A DNA stretch of 64,000 nt from a virus (Duplodnaviria; Caudoviricetes): positions 22,051 through 86,050 of IMG/VR virus record IMGVR_UViG_3300037312_001875; one strand, given 5' to 3'. Made by a program: the position numbers and the translations under genes. Shown one piece after another: positions 1 to 8,951 of this stretch. The first letter of the stretch is position 1. Each line of letters starts with the position of its first letter. The notes beneath the pieces were generated by a model. It worked only from the letters and a program-made list of their open reading frames with translations, had not been told where the DNA came from and made no database searches.

Positions 1-2814
1 ATTACAGCTAGAGGTCTATGGACTTCGAATCGATTAGACGAGCGAGGGCGGTTTATATTCGGAAGTTTGGATGAACGCGGACAAACTGTAGCGGGAACTT
101 CCACTGGAGCTGCGACTAATCCTGTTTTTGGGACAGTATCTCTTAATCCCAATCCTAGTGGATTGACTGTTACTGCCAGTGTTATTAAATTAACCCCTAT
201 GGCAAGCATTGATGGCGGAAGTTTTTTAAACACCCAGTTTACTTCTACTATTGATGGCGGTGCTTACCAAACAACGCAATTTAATTCCGTTAAGGATGGG
301 GGCGTCTTTAGACTGATCGACGGAGGAATATTTAACAATTCCGTTACTACTAACACCATAGATGGAGGTGCCTTTACCGATACAACCGTAAGTAATACGA
401 GGGATGGCGGTGCCTTTACATCTTCACCTTCTCCTTCTAAAGATTCGGATATCAATGGAGGTGATTTTGCAGATCCGCAGGATTCCTCCGTCGATGCTGG
501 TGGTTTCACGGATACTCAAAACTCTTCGATTGATGGCGGTGCCTTTACGGATATTTCTTCGGTTTCGATAGGGGCAAGTTCGACCGTTACTGCAAATGGA
601 AGGTCGATTCTAACATCTTCGGTTACGATTACTGATTTAAGTTCTCTTGTTGTTCAACCAAGTTCGGTTCCTTCTAGTGTTTCCATAAATGCTAATACGC
701 AGGTAACCACTTATGGAGCTGCTATCCAACAATCCTTTGTTTCCATAAGTGCTGGTACAACTATCACATCGATTGGAAACACGATACAAAATTCGTCTAT
801 ATCTATTACGGCATCAGGTTCTCTCGTCTCTCAAGGAAGTTTGGTGGGAACAACAACCAATATTCTTGATGGAGGTTCTTTTAAAAATTATGTCAGCACG
901 AACACCGTCGATGGCGGATCCTTTACCAATACAACCGTAAGTAACACACGAGATGGCGGGGTCTTTACGTCTTTACCTTCTCCTTCTACGGGTTCCGACG
1001 TTGACGGTGGTGACTTTACTAGCCCTAACGACTCCTCAATTGATGGCGGTAATTTTACCAATCAAAATGATTCTGCTATCGATGGTGGTAATTTTGTTGA
1101 TTACACCATTGTAATCAATGGCCGTTCTACTTTGATTGTATCGGGTTCTGTTTCTTCATTAGGGACGATAGATGGAGGGAACTTTGATGATCCGTCATAC
1201 GATACCGTCATCGACGGTGGAAGTCCTGATGACACCGCATATGATTTTATCATTGATGGAGGAACGTTGGACTCTATTTTTATAAGTTCGCTTTCTTCGT
1301 TAAGTGCTAAGGGTGCCGGTGTTTTAACAGGACACGTTTCAATTTCCTCCGTTGGAAATGTCGTTGGAGGTATCGCTTCATCAACCCCTGTTTCCATTGA
1401 GATTGACCCTTTACCATCGAAGGTGTTCGTAACAGGAACTGTAATCAAAAAGGGAACCATTTCTTCTTCCGGAGCAGGTACCGTTGTGGTCAGCGCCGTG
1501 GGTGAATCGGTCGTTAAAACAGTCTTGTCAGGACCGATTGCGATAAATGCATCGAGTTCAACCCAGTCCTATGGAACGATTGATGGACAAGTATCCGCTT
1601 TAATTTTTGGAACTGGATTAGTCATGGCGGGTGGAAACGTCATTTCGTCATCCGCTGTGATCACCAGCAATTCATCCAGTACGGTAACATTGTCCGCAAT
1701 TTGTATGGCATTAGGTAATGTTTCATCTTTCGGAACCGGAGTGGTGACAACAAACGGAAAAATCAAGGCGGTTTCAGATATCATTTCCATTACCTCAACA
1801 AGTGCAGCAACTCCATCGGGAATCTTGATCACAAAAGGTTCTGGCTCCACTTCCGGAATAAGTTCTGTCAGTGCTAATGGAAATGTAATTGCTGGTACCG
1901 GTGCTTCTATCGCGGCGTCAAGTGCGGTCACATCATCTTCTAGATATATTGCATCTGGAACGGCGTTGCCTGCGGGCAAGAGTAACCTTACGACTGAAGA
2001 AGGAACAGTATCTTTATCAGGTCCACTCCCTATTCATGCGTCTAGTGTGTTAACAGCCTCCGCGTTCATAGTTGCTAAAAATACTGTTTCTTGTTCTGGC
2101 AAAGGAAATTTATCTGTTGTAGGCGATAGGGTCGCGATCGCGCCTTCGTTCACTTTTAATGGAAAAAGTAACATAAGCATTTCTCAAATATTGACGAGAC
2201 CGGCCAACGCTTCGGTTTCAAGCAATGGCACCGTAACCGCCATTGGTAGAGTCATAAAGAGCGGAGCGATCGGCGTCAATGCTCAGGGAACGAGTACGAA
2301 TGAAATCAATGGCTTTGTTATCTTAGGCGGAATCGTGAAGTTAACGGATACAAGTAGAGTGGATAGCATTCCAATCGCTGTCCGCCTAAGCGGTTCATCG
2401 TTGAAATCGGGGGCTTCTCTGACCCTATCGTTCAACGGGGTGAGACTGGCACAGGCTTCTTTTGCGGCAACGAGCTCGATTGCTGCCAACGATATCCGAA
2501 TTCGTAGAGAAGGCTCAGCTGTTAATGGTGTTACTTCTGTTGAGATAGAAGCGATCCGAAGGACACTTAATACGGTCTTATTCGGTGGACAAACGGGAGT
2601 GACCGTTAATGGATTTACGACAACCAGAAGCAAAATCCTATTAGACTCTAAATCTTCTTTACGGACCAACGGTGGAAAAACAACTCCGGTTGATGTGGTC
2701 ATCTCTGCTAAAGGCGACGTAAACCTATTCATTGGCGACAAAATTATTGGGGAAGTGAATCTTGAAGGAAATGTCGCTGGCAGTGTGAGTTTTTCGGGGA
2801 TTCTAAAAAATTAA
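1..2814 (+). CDS. Large Ser/Thr/Gly-rich virion fibre/scaffold protein with 16 DGG motifs (5'-truncated by the window edge)
   Basis: Frame is open from base 1 (ITARGLWTS...LDERGQT). Repeated [ILV]DGGx[FY] motifs in the N-half, small-residue beta-type repeats in the C-half. Lies upstream of receptor-binding genes. Confidence 0.7.
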   Translation: MTARGLWTSNRLDERGRFIFGSLDERGQTVAGTSTGAATNPVFGTVSLNPNPSGLTVTASVIKLTPMASIDGGSFLNTQFTSTIDGGAYQTTQFNSVKDGGVFRLIDGGIFNNSVTTNTIDGGAFTDTTVSNTRDGGAFTSSPSPSKDSDINGGDFADPQDSSVDAGGFTDTQNSSIDGGAFTDISSVSIGASSTVTANGRSILTSSVTITDLSSLVVQPSSVPSSVSINANTQVTTYGAAIQQSFVSISAGTTITSIGNTIQNSSISITASGSLVSQGSLVGTTTNILDGGSFKNYVSTNTVDGGSFTNTTVSNTRDGGVFTSLPSPSTGSDVDGGDFTSPNDSSIDGGNFTNQNDSAIDGGNFVDYTIVINGRSTLIVSGSVSSLGTIDGGNFDDPSYDTVIDGGSPDDTAYDFIIDGGTLDSIFISSLSSLSAKGAGVLTGHVSISSVGNVVGGIASSTPVSIEIDPLPSKVFVTGTVIKKGTISSSGAGTVVVSAVGESVVKTVLSGPIAINASSSTQSYGTIDGQVSALIFGTGLVMAGGNVISSSAVITSNSSSTVTLSAICMALGNVSSFGTGVVTTNGKIKAVSDIISITSTSAATPSGILITKGSGSTSGISSVSANGNVIAGTGASIAASSAVTSSSRYIASGTALPAGKSNLTTEEGTVSLSGPLPIHASSVLTASAFIVAKNTVSCSGKGNLSVVGDRVAIAPSFTFNGKSNISISQILTRPANASVSSNGTVTAIGRVIKSGAIGVNAQGTSTNEINGFVILGGIVKLTDTSRVDSIPIAVRLSGSSLKSGASLTLSFNGVRLAQASFAATSSIAANDIRIRREGSAVNGVTSVEIEAIRRTLNTVLFGGQTGVTVNGFTTTRSKILLDSKSSLRTNGGKTTPVDVVISAKGDVNLFIGDKIIGEVNLEGNVAGSVSFSGILKN
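352..1101 (+). repeat. Gap-free 201-bp (67-codon) internal duplication, 352-552 vs 901-1101
   Basis: NTIDGGAFTDTTVSNTRDGGAFTSSPSPS... vs NTVDGGSFTNTTVSNTRDGGVFTSLPSPS...; same length, many synonymous differences. Confidence 0.9.
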
Positions 2815-2817
2815 TAG

Positions 2818-2844
2818 ACGACCTTTCAAAGGTCGTTTTTTTTT
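2818..2844 (+). terminator. Rho-independent terminator
   Basis: ACGACCT-ttcaa-AGGTCGT followed by a T run. Confidence 0.8.
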
Positions 2845-2865
2845 ACCATTATCAATCTTTAAACG

Positions 2866-2900
2866 TGATAGAATAATAATTAATTAGGACTTTCGACCTA
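2866..2900 (+). promoter_or_regulatory. Extended -10 promoter (TGATAGAAT) with TAGG-N8-CCTA operator at 2885-2900
   Basis: TG-A-TAGAAT at 2866-2874; TAGGACTTTCGACCTA directly before TAAGGAGG. Confidence 0.65.
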
Positions 2901-2927
2901 TAAGGAGGAGGTAAAGGAGGGTGCTTT

Positions 2928-3281
2928 ATGACCAAGAAGAACCAGAACTTCTCAATGGTAGCGGGCGATACCATGTTAATCAATATTGGTGTGACCGATT
3001 CTAACGGAACCCCCATTAACTTAACAGGATGTTCCATTACATGGATTGTCAAAAAGACAGTCAAAGCCCCTATCGTTTTGGTGACTAAAACGACGCAGGA
3101 TGATATTGCAATTCGGGATGTCAGAAAAGGACTGTTTGTCGTAAAACTCAACAGCCAAGATACGGCGGGATTTGATGGTCGAATGTATCACGAAGCCAAA
3201 GTAAAAGATGCTTTCGGCGATGTAGCCACGGTTGCCACTGGTTTGATCACCTTCGTTCCGAGCGGAGCGGTGGCAACATGA
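2928..3281 (+). CDS. BppU-N/Ig-like phage structural adaptor protein
   Basis: GDT...INLTGCSITWIVKK and GRMYHEAKVKD...VATGLITF resemble BppU-type Ig-like baseplate/fibre domains; strong RBS. Confidence 0.55.
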   Translation: MTKKNQNFSMVAGDTMLINIGVTDSNGTPINLTGCSITWIVKKTVKAPIVLVTKTTQDDIAIRDVRKGLFVVKLNSQDTAGFDGRMYHEAKVKDAFGDVATVATGLITFVPSGAVAT

Positions 3282-3321
3282 CGAGTCGACAATTACAAGT
3301 TCAATAGATGGAGGGATTCTA

Positions 3322-4362
3322 ATGGATAAAATTTTAGTGCGCAGAGGATTAAAAGGTGATTTGCCTGACCTTGATGAAGGAGAATTCGGATATTGCACAG
3401 ACACTCGTGAAGTTTTTATTGGTACTTCTACTGCTACGAATGTCCCGGTTGGAGGAGCATCAAATTTAGATGGTCTGACTGACGTCGATACGACGACAAC
3501 TGCACCAACCAATGGTCAAGTGTTGAAATATGATTCTGCAACAAGCCTTTGGAAGCCGGGCACGGTGACAGGCGGTGGTGGAGGACCGACTTTAGTAGCT
3601 TCTTACACTCATACGAAGAACAAAGAGGTAGCTGTATCAGCTATTAACTATACAGATGGCACATTCTCTTCTACCGGTCATGGATTGGCTCTTAATGACA
3701 CAGTGACCATTATTCCTAACAAGGATATGGTTAATTCAGGTGTCAACGCTGGTAATGGTGGTAGCTATGTGGTTGGTTATTATCCTACGGGGATTTCCGC
3801 TAGGACTAAGTACTATGTAGTAAATCCACAGACTGACTCATTCCAATTATCGGCTACTTCTGGTGGAGCGGCTATTGTTCCAACGAACCCGAACTCAACC
3901 GTGGACGTAACTAAGTGGCATTTTGAAAGACAGGTGGATTCTACTATCGACTTTGGAACACTTCCAGCGGCGGGTTCGAAATTCCGAATAGTGCTTAGTG
4001 GAAAGGTGTTACGAAGCAACACAGGTCAATTAAACGTATATGCGGGTTCATTGCAATTCCCATATACCAATTTACTTGTGTCCACCAATACTATCATGTC
4101 AGGATTCGGAAATGGCGTTTGGTCTTTAGCTGGTGACATGCACACCTACCGTGAATATGACCTTAATTCTGAGGGGTACTATTACATTCGACAAAGAGGA
4201 GTAGACTACGCTACCAATACTACTTCCGCATACACGGCTACTGTTCGTGATAATACAGGTATTTGTCAAGATTACACATTCTTCAATAAACAAATAACAA
4301 AAATAACGATCATTAACATTGATGCGGCGAATGGTTTAACTGTCCAACTTTATAGCATGTAA
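3322..4362 (+). CDS. Receptor-binding/fibre protein 1 with Mtd_N-like N-terminus
   Basis: KILVRRG...LPDLDEGEFGYCTDTREVFIG; phage fibre repeat LDGLTDVD..TNGQVLKYD..W; beta-rich C-terminal domain. Confidence 0.7.
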   Translation: MDKILVRRGLKGDLPDLDEGEFGYCTDTREVFIGTSTATNVPVGGASNLDGLTDVDTTTTAPTNGQVLKYDSATSLWKPGTVTGGGGGPTLVASYTHTKNKEVAVSAINYTDGTFSSTGHGLALNDTVTIIPNKDMVNSGVNAGNGGSYVVGYYPTGISARTKYYVVNPQTDSFQLSATSGGAAIVPTNPNSTVDVTKWHFERQVDSTIDFGTLPAAGSKFRIVLSGKVLRSNTGQLNVYAGSLQFPYTNLLVSTNTIMSGFGNGVWSLAGDMHTYREYDLNSEGYYYIRQRGVDYATNTTSAYTATVRDNTGICQDYTFFNKQITKITIINIDAANGLTVQLYSM

Positions 4363-4368
4363 TTTATG

Positions 4369-4394
4369 AAGCCAATAGGAGACTGTTGGCTTTT
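4369..4394 (+). terminator. Hairpin/weak terminator between RBP1 and RBP2
   Basis: AAGCCAATAG-gaga-CTGTTGGCTT plus a short T tail. Confidence 0.5.
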
Positions 4395-4409
4395 AAAGGA
4401 GGGTAAAAA

Positions 4410-6377
4410 ATGGCACCCAAAATTCAAATCAGAAGAGGGTTAAGTTCTAGTTTGCCGATCAATTTAGCAGAAGGTGAATTTGGCTTTACTACAGATTCAA
4501 AGGAACTTTATATTGGTTCAACCGGAGGGAATGTTAAGTTAGCGAAATATTCGGATTTAAGCTCGATTTCTGGTGGAAGTGTTATTGAGACTTATGAAAC
4601 GGAAGCGGTAGGAGAATTATTCTATCCGCCTGGCAACTACAACGCATGGTGTCCGAGCAATTTACAGTGGGATAAAACAAGAGGGGTCTTTGCGGTTCTG
4701 ATTAATGCTGCTGATGCCCATGTATTCACTAAGATAGACCAATACTTCTGTACAATTAATCCTGACACGCTTATTTCCACGAAACCTGTTCTTGTTAGTC
4801 CGAAAGATACTAGTGGGAATGCTGTTGCATGGGACACTCAAACATCTTCTAATAATTTTATGATACTAAATGATGGAACATATGTATTTTATAGAAGATT
4901 AGGTGGAGTTTATCAAAGAATAACCTCGACAGACGGTGGTGTCACTTGGGTTAATCAAGGACCTATTACTTTTACACCAGGTGGTATTATCACTACTTCC
5001 TCCAATATTTGGGGCATCCAAAAACTATCTAGTGGAAGATTAATTATTGGATGGGGAGCTCAAGCGGAGGTTCGAGGAAAAATTTCATGGTCAGATAATG
5101 GGATAGATTGGAATGTTGTTAATATCGGTTGGAATACAATAAGTCCAACACCTACAGCAGCAGAGCCTCATATTATTGAAGTGAAACCTGGTCAGTTAGT
5201 AAGTTTGGCGAGGATGACAAGCGCGGGTGCTACGGGTGGATTATCCCCTGAACCTGCCTTAATATCTTTCTCTAATGATAATGGTGCCTCTTGGACACCT
5301 TATGTAAAATCTTCATCAATTACTGACATGAATGCATCTGGGGCTACAGCGTTTGTTCATGATGGTATGGTTGAAGTGTTCGTAGCTTCAAGATTCTATG
5401 GTAGTACAAGCAATGTAAACACAGGTGAAACTGGTGCGATCTATCATTATACCGCAACATTAGATAATGCATTAGCGGACAAATTCACCTTAAAAAATGT
5501 GAGTGTATTTGCAAATGCGGTAGATAGCGTGGACTTCCATTCTCCTTGTGTGGCCATTGACAGTAAAAAAAGACTTCTTCTTATGTATATGGATCAAACG
5601 CATTATACCGTTACAACGGCAGAAGTGAACTATTTATTTGTAAGAGGTGGAAGGACATCTGTACCTAAATTAAATGCTGATGGAAAAAATGCGCCTCTAT
5701 TTGGATATAGCGGGAAATATATTGAATCACTAGTTTCAAATTTAAAAACAGAAATTGCTACTTTGCAAAACAAAGTATCCTTAATTAGCGGAGTAACAAA
5801 TCCTGTTCCTGCTCCCAAAGGTACTTTAATTTGGACTAAAAAATATAATACTCAGCTTGAAAACAAATATGTATATGATTCTAGTAATGAATTTTCAGGT
5901 AGAGTGCAATGGGCATCACAAGCAACTCCTTCTTACAATAATATTGAAACAGATGCAAATGGTATTAAATATCATAGTACGGGTACATCCGGAACAATTC
6001 TTATTCCTGTAACAAAGCCAAATTTTTCTATTCAATATACAGGCACAATTGGAAATGAATCGATATGGTCACCGACTGCAGCTGGTATTATCAATGGAGT
6101 AGCGTATGGAGCTATCTTTGTGGCAAAATATGGTGTTACTAAAAATATATATCATGAATTTAGATTTGAAAATTGGAATGGCAAAATGAAAGTATTCATC
6201 GATAATATTGAAATGCCTACTGTCGTAAGTACAAACTTTGATTCTAATTCATCTAATATGTACAGTAATACTTGGAGCCAAGCCCAAACTTTAGGTTATG
6301 TTGCAGGTAATACTTATGCGGTTGCCAGCATATCGTCTGGAAAAATCTATGACCTCAAATTTGGTGAATGGGATTAA
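4410..6377 (+). CDS. Receptor-binding protein 2: Mtd_N-like N-terminus plus sialidase-like (BNR/Asp-box) beta-propeller
   Basis: KIQIRRG..LPINLAEGEFGFTTDSKELYIG; Asp-boxes STDGGVTW, SDNGIDW, SNDNGASW; YNAW motif reminiscent of phage endosialidases. Confidence 0.75.
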   Translation: MAPKIQIRRGLSSSLPINLAEGEFGFTTDSKELYIGSTGGNVKLAKYSDLSSISGGSVIETYETEAVGELFYPPGNYNAWCPSNLQWDKTRGVFAVLINAADAHVFTKIDQYFCTINPDTLISTKPVLVSPKDTSGNAVAWDTQTSSNNFMILNDGTYVFYRRLGGVYQRITSTDGGVTWVNQGPITFTPGGIITTSSNIWGIQKLSSGRLIIGWGAQAEVRGKISWSDNGIDWNVVNIGWNTISPTPTAAEPHIIEVKPGQLVSLARMTSAGATGGLSPEPALISFSNDNGASWTPYVKSSSITDMNASGATAFVHDGMVEVFVASRFYGSTSNVNTGETGAIYHYTATLDNALADKFTLKNVSVFANAVDSVDFHSPCVAIDSKKRLLLMYMDQTHYTVTTAEVNYLFVRGGRTSVPKLNADGKNAPLFGYSGKYIESLVSNLKTEIATLQNKVSLISGVTNPVPAPKGTLIWTKKYNTQLENKYVYDSSNEFSGRVQWASQATPSYNNIETDANGIKYHSTGTSGTILIPVTKPNFSIQYTGTIGNESIWSPTAAGIINGVAYGAIFVAKYGVTKNIYHEFRFENWNGKMKVFIDNIEMPTVVSTNFDSNSSNMYSNTWSQAQTLGYVAGNTYAVASISSGKIYDLKFGEWD

Positions 6378-6384
6378 TTTTTAG

Positions 6385-6411
6385 AAAGCCAGCATCACTG
6401 CTGGCTTTTTT
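6385..6411 (+). terminator. Rho-independent terminator
   Basis: AAAGCCAGCA-tcac-TGCTGGCTTT plus T run. Confidence 0.85.
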
Positions 6412-6436
6412 ATTTTCAGCAATCTTTCTGAAAGTT

Positions 6437-6467
6437 TGATAGAATTCTTTATAGGTATAAAGTCCTA
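6437..6467 (+). promoter_or_regulatory. Extended -10 promoter (TGATAGAAT) with TAGG-N8-CCTA operator at 6452-6467
   Basis: Same architecture as 2866-2900: TGATAGAAT, then TAGGTATAAAGTCCTA, then TAAGGAGG. Confidence 0.7.
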
Positions 6468-6481
6468 TAAGGAGGGGAAAT

Positions 6482-8899
6482 ATGACTCAAAAAATACAAT
6501 TTAAGCGAGGGCAACAAAACGAACTACCCACTTTAGCAATTGGAGAACCTGCCTTTACTTTAGATACGAAAAAAATGTTTGTCGGATCCTCTGGTGGAAA
6601 TATAGAATTGGCAAAAAGTTCGGTTGTCCACAATATCTCTTATGTTGTGGACCTAGATCGATGGGGGATTACGCAAGGTTCCTTTGGAAAACCTCCTTAT
6701 ACAACAGACGAATGGGCGGTAGCTTATAACAATATTCAAGGATTGAATGCCGCTTTGGTGTTTGCGAAGGATAATGGCTATAATCGAGTGATTCTTCCAA
6801 AAGGAACATATAGTTTCTGTTACACAAACCCAACTGGCGGACCAAGACCAGTCGATATGAAGTCAATCCCCATTCAGTTATTCAGCAATCAAACATTAGA
6901 CTTAAATGGTTCAACCTTTGAAGTTATGTATGATTCCATTAACAAGAACCCATACGATTTATCACCAGATACCACAGAGCCATGGAGGTTATCAGGTAAC
7001 CTTATTAGTTTGGATGAATGTATTAATTCTCATGTAACCAACGGAAAGATCATTGGAGACATCCCCAACAGAAGTTTCTCTGATGCAGGAACTGGTTTTG
7101 AGTCGGAAAAGGGGATGGAGCAAACAAGGGGAATTGGAATTAATAATGGAGCGAAAAACTGCTCTGTTTCCTTTATTGACATCTCTATGTTTATGGGTGA
7201 CGCAATCCGTATCGGAAACACCCCTACTCAAACAACTAACTGGAACGTCAGTGGATGGGGTAACAACACATGTAATCCTGGTTACATCAATAATGATGGG
7301 ACCATTAATGCCTCTACGAGTGGAGCTTATCTCTCTCCAGAATATACCATTATTCAAGGAGAACATAAGGTTATTCAGTTGCGTACGAATGGAGGATACA
7401 CACGTATCCCTGCTATCAAAGGTTTTTTCTTCGAGTTTGTATTCTTGGATAGCAGTAAAGTAGTGGTAGCAAGAAAGAAAGCTACTTACTTACAATCGGT
7501 TACTGTCCCTTATAATGCTGCATATCTACGTATGCAGTTCACAGGACAAGATGTTGGTCTAACTACTTTTAAACCCGATTATGCGATTACTAAAGTGCAA
7601 GCAGCAAATATCCATATCCATCACTGCGATATCCACGATAACCACCGTGGAGGAATAAGTGGTGGAGCTGACGATACGCTGATCGAATGGAACCGTATTT
7701 ATCATAATGGTTTAGATTCCAGTATCGGAGTGCCTTTATTCCCTGATACAACTCGTTACTGTATCAACTTTGAGGATAGTTATTGTAATAAGGTAACGAT
7801 CCGTAACAATCTGATGTTTTCCGGATTCAATGGATTGCTATTGTCAGTCTACAATATCAATGTTACTGGGAACATTATGTACAATTTCTCTTCTGGCGTT
7901 CTTATATATAACAATGCTAGAACGGTTGTAAGAGATAATTTGTTCATTGATGCGGCTTCCATTGGATTGATGGATAATGTAGGTTTCCAACGAAGGGAAA
8001 TTGACTTCGAACATAACTGGGTATTAGGCGGAAGTATGAGTGTAGACACTACCTCATATCCTTCAACGAGTGTTCAGATTAGAAATAACCGTTTGACGCC
8101 GGACTCCATTTCTCTTACAGGAGCCGTTTTATTCACAGGAAATAAATTAGACTCAACGACTGGGGATAAGAATACAGCGACTCAGTGGACTATTCGAGCT
8201 ACAAGATGCACGAACAACGATTTTAACAATTGTGCTGTACAGATTGATAAATATGATGATTCTAGCGTGTTCTCGGATAACCGCTTCAACTCTGTTGTGA
8301 TCCGTCCGAGCAAATGGACGAATGAGATTGATTGGAGACGTACAAGATTCTATAACAGCTTTATCGATTGGTTGTATTTCTATGACAAGACAAAGAATGT
8401 CACAACCACTTTTACGGACTGTACGTTCCAAGATACCACATTCGATACAGGTCATGGATTCATCAACGATGCGACGAACGGAAACCTTACCGTATCAGTG
8501 CGATTCAAACGTTGTGAATTTAACATGACCAACGCGATTGCATCTACTGTCATGATTACCTTAAATGATAACGTGGCAAGCTCATCTTACCCAGCCGGAG
8601 TAGCGCAACGTCAATACAAAGCTGTATTCAAAGACTGTGAATTCAACAATACTTCGGATTCTCCTGTCCGTTATATTGCGAGTACGTCGAATAGTGGCTC
8701 TCAACCTAAGAACATGCTTTTAGAGCGATGCTCAATTGATACCGCTAGATTCAAGCTGTTCGGAGATTATGCGAACAACAGTGCAACCATGAGGGATACC
8801 GATTTCTTAAATGGAAGCACTCCGATTACCATGACGAATGCTGCAGTGACTACAGTTAAACAAGTTGAGTCTAGCTGGAACGGTTCGACTTGGATATAG
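6482..8899 (+). CDS. Receptor-binding protein 3: Mtd_N-like N-terminus plus pectate-lyase-like right-handed beta-helix (putative depolymerase)
   Basis: KIQFKRG..LPTLAIGEPAFTLDTKKMFVG; VILPKGTY, NQTLDLNGS, GDAIRIG, repeated I/V-x-I-x-x-N-x-I beta-helix rungs. Confidence 0.75.
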   Translation: MTQKIQFKRGQQNELPTLAIGEPAFTLDTKKMFVGSSGGNIELAKSSVVHNISYVVDLDRWGITQGSFGKPPYTTDEWAVAYNNIQGLNAALVFAKDNGYNRVILPKGTYSFCYTNPTGGPRPVDMKSIPIQLFSNQTLDLNGSTFEVMYDSINKNPYDLSPDTTEPWRLSGNLISLDECINSHVTNGKIIGDIPNRSFSDAGTGFESEKGMEQTRGIGINNGAKNCSVSFIDISMFMGDAIRIGNTPTQTTNWNVSGWGNNTCNPGYINNDGTINASTSGAYLSPEYTIIQGEHKVIQLRTNGGYTRIPAIKGFFFEFVFLDSSKVVVARKKATYLQSVTVPYNAAYLRMQFTGQDVGLTTFKPDYAITKVQAANIHIHHCDIHDNHRGGISGGADDTLIEWNRIYHNGLDSSIGVPLFPDTTRYCINFEDSYCNKVTIRNNLMFSGFNGLLLSVYNINVTGNIMYNFSSGVLIYNNARTVVRDNLFIDAASIGLMDNVGFQRREIDFEHNWVLGGSMSVDTTSYPSTSVQIRNNRLTPDSISLTGAVLFTGNKLDSTTGDKNTATQWTIRATRCTNNDFNNCAVQIDKYDDSSVFSDNRFNSVVIRPSKWTNEIDWRRTRFYNSFIDWLYFYDKTKNVTTTFTDCTFQDTTFDTGHGFINDATNGNLTVSVRFKRCEFNMTNAIASTVMITLNDNVASSSYPAGVAQRQYKAVFKDCEFNNTSDSPVRYIASTSNSGSQPKNMLLERCSIDTARFKLFGDYANNSATMRDTDFLNGSTPITMTNAAVTTVKQVESSWNGSTWI

Positions 8900-8914
8900 G
8901 AACAAAAAAACGGA

Positions 8915-8951
8915 AAAAGGACTCCTTGTGTTTCTACAAGGAGTCCTTTTT
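8915..8951 (+). terminator. Rho-independent terminator
   Basis: AAAAGGACTCCTTGT / ACAAGGAGTCCTTTT perfect inverted repeat. Confidence 0.85.

What the first reader, a model, noticed from the sequence alone, without database searches (positions are those of the whole stretch)
1..8899. Possible plug-and-socket receptor display system: a DGG-repeat scaffold plus three Mtd_N-headed proteins
Seen: the first ORF carries 16 exact DGG motifs ([ILVRK]DGGx, mostly followed by F/Y; about nt 205-1266) plus two variants (NGG, DAGG), spaced roughly 12-15 aa apart in clusters within Ser/Thr-rich sequence. After a BppU-like adaptor, three consecutive genes share a ~45-aa N-terminus, KIxx[RK]RGx4LPx1-2LxxGEx[GA][FY]xxD[TS][KR][EK]x[FY][IV]G, and nothing else. 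Established: this N-terminus matches the Mtd_N domain (Bordetella phage Mtd N-terminal family), which attaches receptor-binding trimers to virions. Inference: each DGG peptide is a docking epitope for an Mtd_N trimer. The scaffold would then display many interchangeable receptor-binding/depolymerase heads, in addition to the conventional fibres at 59-63 kb. I know of no described multi-socket scaffold of this kind in a Bacillus myophage.
Basis: partly seen in the sequence, partly recalled or inferred. Interest (0 to 1): 0.82.

Follow-up and report, generated by a model that had tools for sequence, protein, structure and literature searches.

The report
Multi-socket scaffold for phage fibre heads

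Summary
There are 16 DGG motifs plus NGG and DAGG variants, against 0.8 expected by chance. Three consecutive genes carry Pfam Mtd_N heads.

- **Synteny, DGG side:** in about 200 unrelated IMG/VR loci, proteins ending in DGGxF repeats are followed at once by an Mtd_N-headed gene in 12-13 of 19 unique cases. For other ORFs of the same loci the rate is 1-2% (p about 1e-18).
- **Synteny, head side:** the reverse test also holds, including in cultured Bacillus and cyanophage genomes.
- **Predicted complex:** one window head in three copies plus three DGG repeats scored 0.77, against a best control of 0.03. Each motif lies on the N-terminal strand of a different subunit.

The stoichiometry needs correcting. 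Three motifs serve one trimer. The 18 motifs fall into six equally spaced triplets, so there are six sockets, not 16-18.

The contig is a fragment of a relative of Bacillus phage G. In the 116 kb held it has five Mtd_N heads and only this one DGGxF-array protein. A Gp80-family gene lies upstream, so a rope-and-dimer fibre like that of podophage GP4 is possible for the non-DGG repeats, but my sequence test did not support it.

Nothing here is experimental. This scan has already noted the same tail-to-cap pairing on other DNA, in giant viruses and Saccharibacteria. No paper or solved structure describing it was found.

The parts
1..2814 (+). Scaffold gene (939 aa; true ATG at window -5): N-terminal anchor, two DGGxF arrays, Ser/Thr/Gly-rich beta-strand repeats
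   Evidence: ORF and start. No Pfam or PHROG family. Only one true relative among 1.8 billion representatives, P0007.
1..126 (+). Conserved N-terminal module (about 44 aa, with two LDERG motifs), probable anchor to the virion
   Evidence: 66% identical to the N-termini of P0006 and P0009. In the podophage contig L009 it is fused, through other repeats, to a homologue of the next gene's Ig-like domain.
208..546 (+). DGGxF array 1: triplets T1-T3 (nine motifs, including the NGG and DAGG variants)
   Evidence: gaps 14,14 | 8 | 14,14 | 17 | 13,13.
865..1269 (+). DGGxF array 2: triplets T4-T6 (nine motifs)
   Evidence: gaps 14,14 | 17 | 13,13 | 30 | 14,14. T4-T5 is a duplicate of T2-T3.
991..1110 (+). 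Triplet T5, the 40-aa segment modelled with three copies of an Mtd_N head
   Evidence: ipSAE 0.77 in three runs, best control 0.03. Motif residues 5-7, 18-20 and 31-33 each contact residues 4-9 of a different head copy.
553..864 (+). Ser/Thr-rich repeats of about 20 aa between the arrays
   Evidence: Period 20 in the autocorrelation. Short strand pairs in a low-confidence model.
1297..2811 (+). C-terminal 500 aa of Ser/Thr/Gly-rich repeats of about 20 aa; function open (shaft, or rope for Gp80-like dimers)
   Evidence: Period 20-21 and 40-41. No sequence likeness to candidate rope proteins.
2816..2838 (+). Terminator-like hairpin just after the scaffold gene
2928..3281 (+). 117-aa Ig-like protein (BppU_N-like, sub-threshold); counterpart of the C-terminal domain of P0009
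   Evidence: phrog_1084, E 1e-12; 30% identity over 80 aa to the C-terminus of P0009.
3322..4362 (+). Mtd_N-headed protein 1 (346 aa); body of unknown function with tail-fibre-like segments
4410..6377 (+). Mtd_N-headed protein 2 (655 aa) with a BNR/sialidase-like propeller; its head was the one modelled
6383..6410 (+). Terminator-like hairpin after head protein 2
6482..8899 (+). Mtd_N-headed protein 3 (805 aa), a beta-helix tailspike
   Evidence: (phrog_2234 tail spike, E 2.5e-35).
8914..8951 (.). Palindromic terminator-like hairpin closing the cassette

Best explanation
The 939-aa protein is a linear docking scaffold. Its 18 DGGxF motifs form six triplets. Each triplet wraps once around the N-terminal cap (Mtd_N) of one trimeric fibre or enzyme, with one motif lying against the first beta-strand (K-I-Q-I-R-R-G type) of each subunit. 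The phage fragment encodes five Mtd_N-headed proteins: a sialidase-like propeller, a beta-helix tailspike, a 346-aa protein of unknown body, a metallophosphoesterase and a carbohydrate-binding-type fibre. It encodes only this one DGGxF-array protein, so one scaffold chain could carry up to six heads of mixed kinds. The conserved 44-aa N-terminus probably fixes the scaffold to the particle.

What is shown: the motifs, their triplet spacing, the Mtd_N heads, and the statistical tail-to-head synteny in other phages.

What is predicted: the interface.

What is inferred: the stoichiometry of six sockets, mixed occupancy, and attachment to the virion.
For: 1. **Motif excess and triplet order.** There are 16 DGG against 0.8 expected. 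All five irregular gaps fall exactly at every third position, which is 1 of 6188 possible placements.

2. **Synteny from the DGG side, IMG/VR.** Unique ORFs that end in DGGxF repeats have an Mtd_N start 0-70 nt downstream in 12/19 cases with the strict model, against 15/1547 control ORFs of the same loci (p 2e-18). With the iterated model the counts are 13/19 against 28/1547. Three further cases are divergent or truncated heads. Nine of ten such heads pass Pfam's Mtd_N cut-off.

3. **Synteny from the head side.**
- Both loci found by head sequence alone (L215, L216) show chains of proteins that each end in DGGxF and are followed by a head.
- Bacillus phages Grass and SIOphi, phage f2b1 (host recorded as Staphylococcus aureus) and cyanophage S-B05 are positive.
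- 24 of 47 unique ORFs upstream of a divergent head class carry the motif. Among all 580 unique ORFs of at least 150 aa in those loci, 33 carry it, which leaves about 2% once the upstream ORFs are set aside.

4. **Closest relative.** The only true relative of the arrays, P0007, ends in six DGGxF motifs and is followed 15 nt later by an Mtd_N tailspike.

5. **A natural adaptor.** L040 encodes a 73-aa protein that is an Mtd_N head plus two DGGxF motifs, as expected of a plug-and-socket adaptor.

6. **Predicted complex.** Score 0.77 in three runs, best of three controls 0.03. That mark was reached by 58 of 80 solved complexes and 2 of 110 mismatched pairs. The runs share at least 92% of their contacts and the partner's pLDDT is at least 80. 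My own alignments were used and the job is unlike the calibration. The contacts fall on the most conserved head positions, I5, R9 and G10.

7. **Not from memory.** No solved chain matches the head or triplet profiles. Fold matches are isolated Mtd and HylP crystals without a bound tail.

8. **Partner count in this genome.** The 116 kb held has five heads and one DGGxF-array protein.
Against: - There is no experiment, and the scaffold is not shown to be in the virion.
- The complex used my own alignments and three copies, unlike the calibration set.
- Only one head and one triplet were modelled.
- Here the arrays are internal, and a small gene lies between the scaffold and the first head, unlike the canonical tail-then-head adjacency.
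- Tails with two motifs are the commonest elsewhere, which fits three-per-trimer only if the bearer is itself an oligomer.
- Several Mtd_N proteins have no DGGxF neighbour: BPP-1 Mtd, Mater gp169, Eldridge gp083 and phage G gp352.
- Heads after internal arrays in tail-hub-like proteins are a divergent class that Pfam mostly does not call Mtd_N. With the strict model only 7/73 of these are positive.
- The contig is about 29% of a genome, so other partners may exist.
- The AlphaFold2 monomer was uninformative (pLDDT 34).
Confidence: 0.65

Rival explanations
1. The protein is a rope for a chain-like fibre, as in podophages GP4 and A1002. Dimers of the Gp80-family protein encoded two genes upstream would dock along its repeats by beta-sheet augmentation. 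This may hold for the 20-aa repeats in addition to the DGG sockets, or instead of them.
For: - A 134-aa protein at genome 37010-37414 matches Pfam Gp80 (E 3.5e-46) and PDB 8JOU chain a (E 2e-13).
- Such dimers are strung on rope proteins with 5 to 11 sites (PMC13730344).
- In NK-7 and Lietuvens the gene next to, or just after, the gp80 homologue has periodic Gly/Ala-rich repeats.
- The scaffold has about 30 units of roughly 20 aa.
Against: - A repeat model trained on the scaffold finds nothing in the NK-7, Lietuvens or P0009 repeats: 0 bits, the same as shuffles. BLASTP finds nothing either.
- The NK-7 candidate rope matches no solved chain.
- The podophage contig L009 has the anchor module and the 280-aa neighbour but no Gp80 gene in the 21 kb read.
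Confidence: 0.25
2. The DGGxF repeats are a self-contained structural element, such as turns of a trimeric beta-spiral or solenoid shaft or calcium-binding turns. On this view they lie next to Mtd_N genes only because both belong to fibre modules.
For: - A period of 13-14 aa with a Gly-Gly turn and flanking hydrophobic residues resembles fibre shaft repeats (own knowledge of adenovirus and reovirus triple beta-spirals).
- Internal arrays sit inside tail-hub-like proteins that often lack a canonical Mtd_N neighbour.
Against: - The enrichment was measured against other ORFs of the same loci, 1-2%.
- The motif sits at the very C-terminus, often as a single copy, directly before the head gene. That is odd for a shaft repeat.
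- The predicted interface is specific and fails with the control partners.
Confidence: 0.12
3. Tail and head are two halves of an ancestrally single fibre protein split at a domain boundary. The adjacency would then reflect that history rather than a reusable connector, and the 18-motif array would be a runaway duplication with no display function.
For: - Gaps of 0-70 nt, and sometimes overlaps, between the tail's stop and the head's start.
- Recent segmental duplication inside the arrays.
Against: - The pairing joins many unrelated upstream proteins, including baseplate proteins, small proteins, FN3 proteins and fibres, to many unrelated bodies.
- Natural head-plus-tail adaptors and daisy chains exist.
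- Split halves would still have to bind each other.
Confidence: 0.08

Closest known systems
Mtd_N cap of Bordetella phage BPP-1 Mtd and of streptococcal phage hyaluronidases HylP (Pfam PF18454; PDB 1YU0, 2C3F, 6X3M)
   Same: The same N-terminal domain by Pfam, above the cut-off, and by fold: Foldseek probability 0.92-0.99 and TM about 0.5. It caps a trimeric receptor-binding or depolymerase protein.
   Different: What the cap binds has not been described, as far as I could find. BPP-1's upstream fibre Bbp9 has no DGGxF motif and ends in ...DLGGIA.
Chain-like fibres of podophages GP4, VP1 and A1002 (rope protein plus gp80-like dimers; PMC13730344; Zheng 2023, J Mol Biol 435:168258, cited there)
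   Same: One extended polypeptide offers many tandem docking sites (5 to 11) for separately encoded fibre subunits. A Gp80-family gene lies in the same cassette here.
   Different: Here the plug is a trimeric Mtd_N cap and the socket is a triplet of DGGxF motifs. The heads are large enzymes of different kinds. The host phage is a phage-G-like giant, not a podophage. No sequence likeness to the candidate ropes was found.
Branched tailspike assemblies (CBA120 TSP1-4, G7C gp63.1/gp66, K1-5/SP6 adaptor, PhiK64-1) - from my own knowledge
   Same: Several different depolymerases are mounted on one particle through N-terminal anchor domains.
   Different: Those systems use folded adaptor domains, such as T4 gp10-like ones, with one site each. 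None was found here by Pfam. Here a short linear motif repeated in tandem does the job.
Herelleviridae baseplate protein (TmpF-like) followed by the so-called 'minor head protein' (Bacillus phages Grass, SIOphi; phage f2b1)
   Same: Two DGGxF-type motifs near the end of the baseplate protein, followed directly by an Mtd_N-headed gene. The heads are the closest cultured relatives of the window's heads.
   Different: Two motifs on a folded baseplate protein (residues 2-421 match PDB 9EUF), against 18 motifs on a dedicated scaffold here.
BppU adaptor of lactococcal phage baseplates (Pfam PF10651)
   Same: The small gene after the scaffold has a weak BppU_N-like match.
   Different: The score is below the Pfam cut-off, and no PDB match was found.

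Membership tests
Mtd_N (Pfam PF18454) | Match to the family model above the gathering score | tested here: met
   28.5, 31.2 and 27.7 bits against a cut-off of 26.3 for the three proteins. The internal copy in the 1081-aa protein scores 27.1.
Mtd_N (Pfam PF18454) | Fold of the Mtd/HylP N-terminal cap | tested here: met
   The head model has pLDDT 81. The best PDB fold matches are 2C3F, 2YVV, 1YU1 and 6X3M, with probability 0.92-0.99 and TM about 0.5. E-values are only 0.02-0.3 because the domain is small.
Mtd_N (Pfam PF18454) | Forms a trimer | tested here: inconclusive
   It was modelled as three copies, with a pLDDT of 85-86 for the heads. A trimer was imposed, not tested against other states.
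DGGxF tail / Mtd_N cap connector (undescribed; noted earlier by this scan) | DGGxF motifs on a protein encoded next to an Mtd_N-headed gene | tested here: met
   Generality shown.
DGGxF tail / Mtd_N cap connector (undescribed; noted earlier by this scan) | Motif and cap bind each other | tested here: inconclusive
   The prediction passes, 0.77 against a best control of 0.03. There is no measurement.
GP4/A1002-type chain-like fibre | Gp80-family fibre subunit encoded | tested here: met
   PF23140, E 3.5e-46. PDB 8JOU chain a, E 2e-13.
GP4/A1002-type chain-like fibre | Adjacent rope protein related to known ropes | tested here: not met
   No likeness by BLASTP or by a repeat model tested against shuffles. 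The periodic repeats alike only by eye.
GP4/A1002-type chain-like fibre | Dimers dock on the rope by beta-sheet augmentation | not tested
BppU_N (Pfam PF10651) | Match above the gathering score | tested here: not met
   21.8 bits against a cut-off of 23.1.
Bacillus phage G lineage (Donellivirus-like) | Shared large structural genes in the same order | tested here: met
   The 1081-aa and 2057-aa proteins are 65% and 59% identical to gp352 and gp353, and are adjacent in both genomes. CheckV completeness of 29% for 116 kb fits a giant genome.

The most novel reading that the evidence does not exclude
DGGxF and the Mtd_N cap form a general, portable connector code for viral fibres. One cap trimer is clasped by three motifs, supplied either by three chains of a trimer (one C-terminal motif each) or by three tandem motifs of one chain. 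Phages use the code to daisy-chain and to multiplex receptor-binding proteins. This scaffold is the extreme case, with six sockets in a row on one polypeptide carrying mixed enzymes.
Probability: 0.5. Interest if true: 0.85.

Novelty: new variant of a known kind. Interest (0 to 1): 0.78.

Why it matters
How modular receptor-binding proteins are fastened to phage particles is known for only a few adaptor domains. A short linear motif that clasps a very widespread fibre cap would have four consequences.

- It would explain how many phages, including cultured Bacillus phages and cyanophages, mount and exchange fibres.
- It would correct misleading annotations. Many Mtd_N-headed proteins of Bacillus phages are labelled 'minor head protein'.
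- It would let fibre partners be predicted from sequence alone.
- It would give a simple handle for swapping or multiplexing heads in laboratory phages.

The six-socket array shows that the connector can be used in series, like the rope of chain-like podophage fibres but with a different plug.

Tried and rejected
- **Homologue searches for the scaffold.** Word-index searches found nothing, both whole-protein and with array 2 alone. tblastn against phages found nothing, nor did IMG/VR relatives. The exhaustive search gave four hits, of which P0008 is a spurious eukaryotic repeat protein.
- **Megablast of the region against phages.** No match.
- **PDB by sequence.** Nothing for the scaffold, the Ig-like protein, a tail-hub-like DGG protein or the NK-7 candidate rope.
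- **AlphaFold2 of the whole scaffold without an alignment.** Mean pLDDT 34, unusable.
- **ESM Atlas.** Only borderline viral hypothetical clusters for the C-terminal half, and nothing for the 280-aa neighbour.
- **Head-side sampling.** A degenerate head pattern found no match, for reasons I could not establish.
- **Rope reading.** The test by a repeat model was negative.
- **Phage G.** Scanned for tandem DGGxF and found none.
- **Paper searches.** Nothing relevant for Mtd_N attachment or a DGG motif.
- **Low-complexity artefact.** I considered and rejected this. The motifs are in one frame, regularly spaced and conserved in P0007.
Full report
**Setting.** The window is bases 38676-102675 of a 116,043-bp IMG/VR virus record rated about 29% complete. 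Two large genes just upstream of the finding are 65% and 59% identical to gp352 and gp353 of Bacillus phage G, and lie in the same order. The closest relatives of the window's fibre heads are in Bacillus phages. The contig is therefore most likely a fragment of a phage-G-like giant Bacillus phage. Phage G itself has neither this cassette after gp353 nor any tandem DGGxF array.

**The observation.** The first ORF begins at an ATG 6 nt before the window, behind a strong ribosome-binding site, and encodes 939 residues.
- It contains 16 DGG, against 0.8 expected and a maximum of 5 in 2000 shuffles. There are two variants as well, all between nt 208 and 1269.
- The gaps between successive motifs are 14,14 | 8 | 14,14 | 17 | 13,13 | 112 | 14,14 | 17 | 13,13 | 30 | 14,14.
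- Every irregular gap falls at each third position. The 18 motifs are therefore six triplets with equal inner spacing.
- The three genes at 3322-4362, 4410-6377 and 6482-8899 each start with a Pfam Mtd_N domain above the gathering score. Apart from that they differ: an unknown body, a BNR/sialidase-like propeller and a beta-helix tailspike.
- The small gene between scaffold and heads matches BppU_N only below the cut-off.
- Terminator-like hairpins follow the scaffold gene, the second head gene and the third.

- A fourth Mtd_N lies inside the 1081-aa metallophosphoesterase upstream.
- A fifth heads a 297-aa protein just beyond the window's end.
- In the 116 kb held, only the scaffold has a DGGxF array.
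- Two genes upstream lies a 134-aa member of Pfam Gp80, the fibre subunit of podophage GP4.

**Relatives of the scaffold.** It has almost none. The informative hits are these.
- P0007 is a metagenomic protein with FN3 domains that ends in six DGGxF motifs. It is followed 15 nt later by an Mtd_N-headed tailspike.
- P0009 comes from a podophage contig. It joins the scaffold's 44-aa N-terminus, other repeats and a homologue of the Ig-like protein in one chain. It is preceded by a homologue of the 280-aa gene that precedes the scaffold here.
- The N-terminal module and the Ig-like domain therefore look like the two ends of one unit whose middle is free to vary.

**Test of co-occurrence, DGG side.** I scanned IMG/VR for two DGGxF motifs 13 or 14 residues apart.
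- Among unique ORFs that end in such repeats and have sequence downstream, 12 of 19 have an Mtd_N start within 0-70 nt on the same strand. This used a model built only from the window's own heads. The rate for other ORFs of at least 150 aa in the same loci is 15 of 1547 (p 2e-18).
- With an iterated model the counts are 13/19 against 28/1547.
- Three of the apparent negatives are divergent or truncated heads, and two are low-complexity artefacts.
- Nine of ten of these downstream heads pass Pfam's own cut-off.
- A second class has three to five motifs inside tail-hub-like proteins. It is followed by a divergent 'MAIQxRRG' head that Pfam mostly does not call. For this class the strict count is only 7/73 and the iterated count 41/73. 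I treat it as suggestive only.

**Test of co-occurrence, head side.**
- The two IMG/VR loci found from the head sequence alone both show chains of proteins that each end in a single DGGxF and are followed by a head.
- Among cultured phages picked by head similarity, Grass, SIOphi and f2b1 have two motifs near the end of the TmpF-like baseplate protein directly before the head gene. In cyanophage S-B05, two small proteins and the fibre itself all end in DGGxF.
- Mater gp169, Eldridge gp083, phage G gp352 and BPP-1 Mtd have no such neighbour.
- For the divergent head class, 24 of 47 unique upstream ORFs carry the motif. Among all 580 unique ORFs of at least 150 aa in those loci, 33 carry it, which leaves about 2% once the upstream ORFs are set aside.
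- A 73-aa protein in L040 is simply a head plus two motifs, as an adaptor would be.

**Predicted complex.** I modelled three copies of the 62-aa head of the second protein (alignment of 40 heads) with triplet T5 (40 aa, alignment of 10 triplets).
- The score was 0.77 in all three runs, and the best of three controls was 0.03.
- That mark was reached by 58 of 80 solved complexes and 2 of 110 mismatched pairs.
- The runs agree in at least 92% of their contacts, and the partner's pLDDT is at least 80.
- My own alignments were used and the job differs from the calibration, so the counts hold only roughly.
- Each motif (partner residues 5-7, 18-20 and 31-33) touches residues 4-9 of a different head copy, with residue 5 of the neighbouring copy also close. 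These are the most conserved head positions.
- The model supports binding; it does not show it.
- It is unlikely to be recalled from a solved complex. No PDB chain matches either profile. The fold matches of the head model are isolated Mtd, HylP and collagen XV/XVIII trimerisation domains.

**Reading.** Three motifs per trimer agrees with the independent triplet spacing. It also explains how single C-terminal motifs on trimeric fibres could do the same job. I therefore read the scaffold as six sockets in series for Mtd_N-capped trimers. Which head sits where, whether occupancy is mixed, and where the scaffold is anchored all remain inference.

**The other repeats.** About 30 units of roughly 20 aa fill the rest of the protein. 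Because a Gp80-family gene is in the cassette, and such dimers ride on rope proteins in GP4 and A1002, these repeats could be a rope. A repeat model and BLASTP find no likeness to candidate ropes. I could not model that complex, and the AlphaFold2 monomer is unusable. I keep this as a secondary possibility that does not exclude the main one.

**Prior knowledge.** I found no paper on a DGG motif in phage fibres or on what Mtd_N binds. After my own tests I looked up this scan's earlier notes. Other agents have reported the same tail-to-cap pairing in giant viruses, a Saccharibacteria cassette and other DNA. Those are unchecked AI notes and not independent evidence, but they mean the connector is not new to this scan. 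What is new here is the serial, six-triplet array in a giant Bacillus phage relative.

Noticed in passing
genome 37010-37414 (window -1665 to -1261; L002:17010-17414): A 134-aa Gp80-family protein, the fibre I subunit of podophage GP4 (Pfam E 3.5e-46; PDB 8JOU E 2e-13), in a giant myophage-like genome. PHROGs labels this family 'head protein'. It has homologues in 158 phage records, including mycobacteriophages and Ralstonia phages.
   Followed up: partly
genome 27284-36714 (L002:7284-16714): Two large genes are 65% and 59% identical to Bacillus phage G gp352 and gp353, so the contig is a fragment of a phage-G-like giant phage. The 2057-aa protein has CotH kinase, LRR and DUF285 domains. The 1081-aa protein has an internal Mtd_N followed by a purple-acid-phosphatase-type metallophosphoesterase.
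   Followed up: partly
L040:10169-10387 (-), IMG/VR contig of 174 kb: A 73-aa protein made only of an Mtd_N head (63 bits) and two C-terminal DGGxF motifs, followed by further Mtd_N-headed genes. It looks like a natural plug-to-socket adaptor.
   Followed up: partly
L009:9178-10933 (podophage contig): A homologue of the 280-aa gene (36% identity) is followed by P0009. P0009 fuses the scaffold's N-terminal 44 aa, different repeats of about 21 aa, and a homologue of the window's 117-aa Ig-like protein. In this window that unit is split into two genes and greatly expanded.
   Followed up: partly
L212:6452-9032 (Bacillus phage Grass), L217 (SIOphi), L221 (f2b1): The Herelleviridae 'minor head protein' or 'minor capsid protein' annotations sit on Mtd_N-headed genes directly after a TmpF-like baseplate protein. 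They are more likely baseplate-attached fibres than head proteins.
   Followed up: partly
model m26add3d4b820 (head of window 4410-4595): The head fold also resembles the trimerisation domains of human collagens XV and XVIII (PDB 3HON, 3N3F, 9BNB; TM about 0.5-0.6 on the target).
   Followed up: no
genome 21174-22316 (L002:1174-2316): An Alp7A/ParM-like actin homologue (PF22128, E 8e-31), as used for segregating plasmids or phage DNA.
   Followed up: no
genome 22396-26873 (L002:2396-6873): Two further pectate-lyase-type beta-helix proteins, one on the opposite strand (phrog_2234, E 3e-92). Neither has an Mtd_N head, so not all spikes of this phage would use the DGG scaffold.
   Followed up: no
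IMG/VR loci L101-L209 (many from sample 3300045988): A large family of tail-hub-like proteins carries three DGGxF motifs at residues about 225-260. The motifs lie between a conserved W-Y-D and an H-H-I-Y...T-D-D-V-V-I-T-G block. The next gene usually starts with M-A-I-Q-x-R-R-G.
   Followed up: partly
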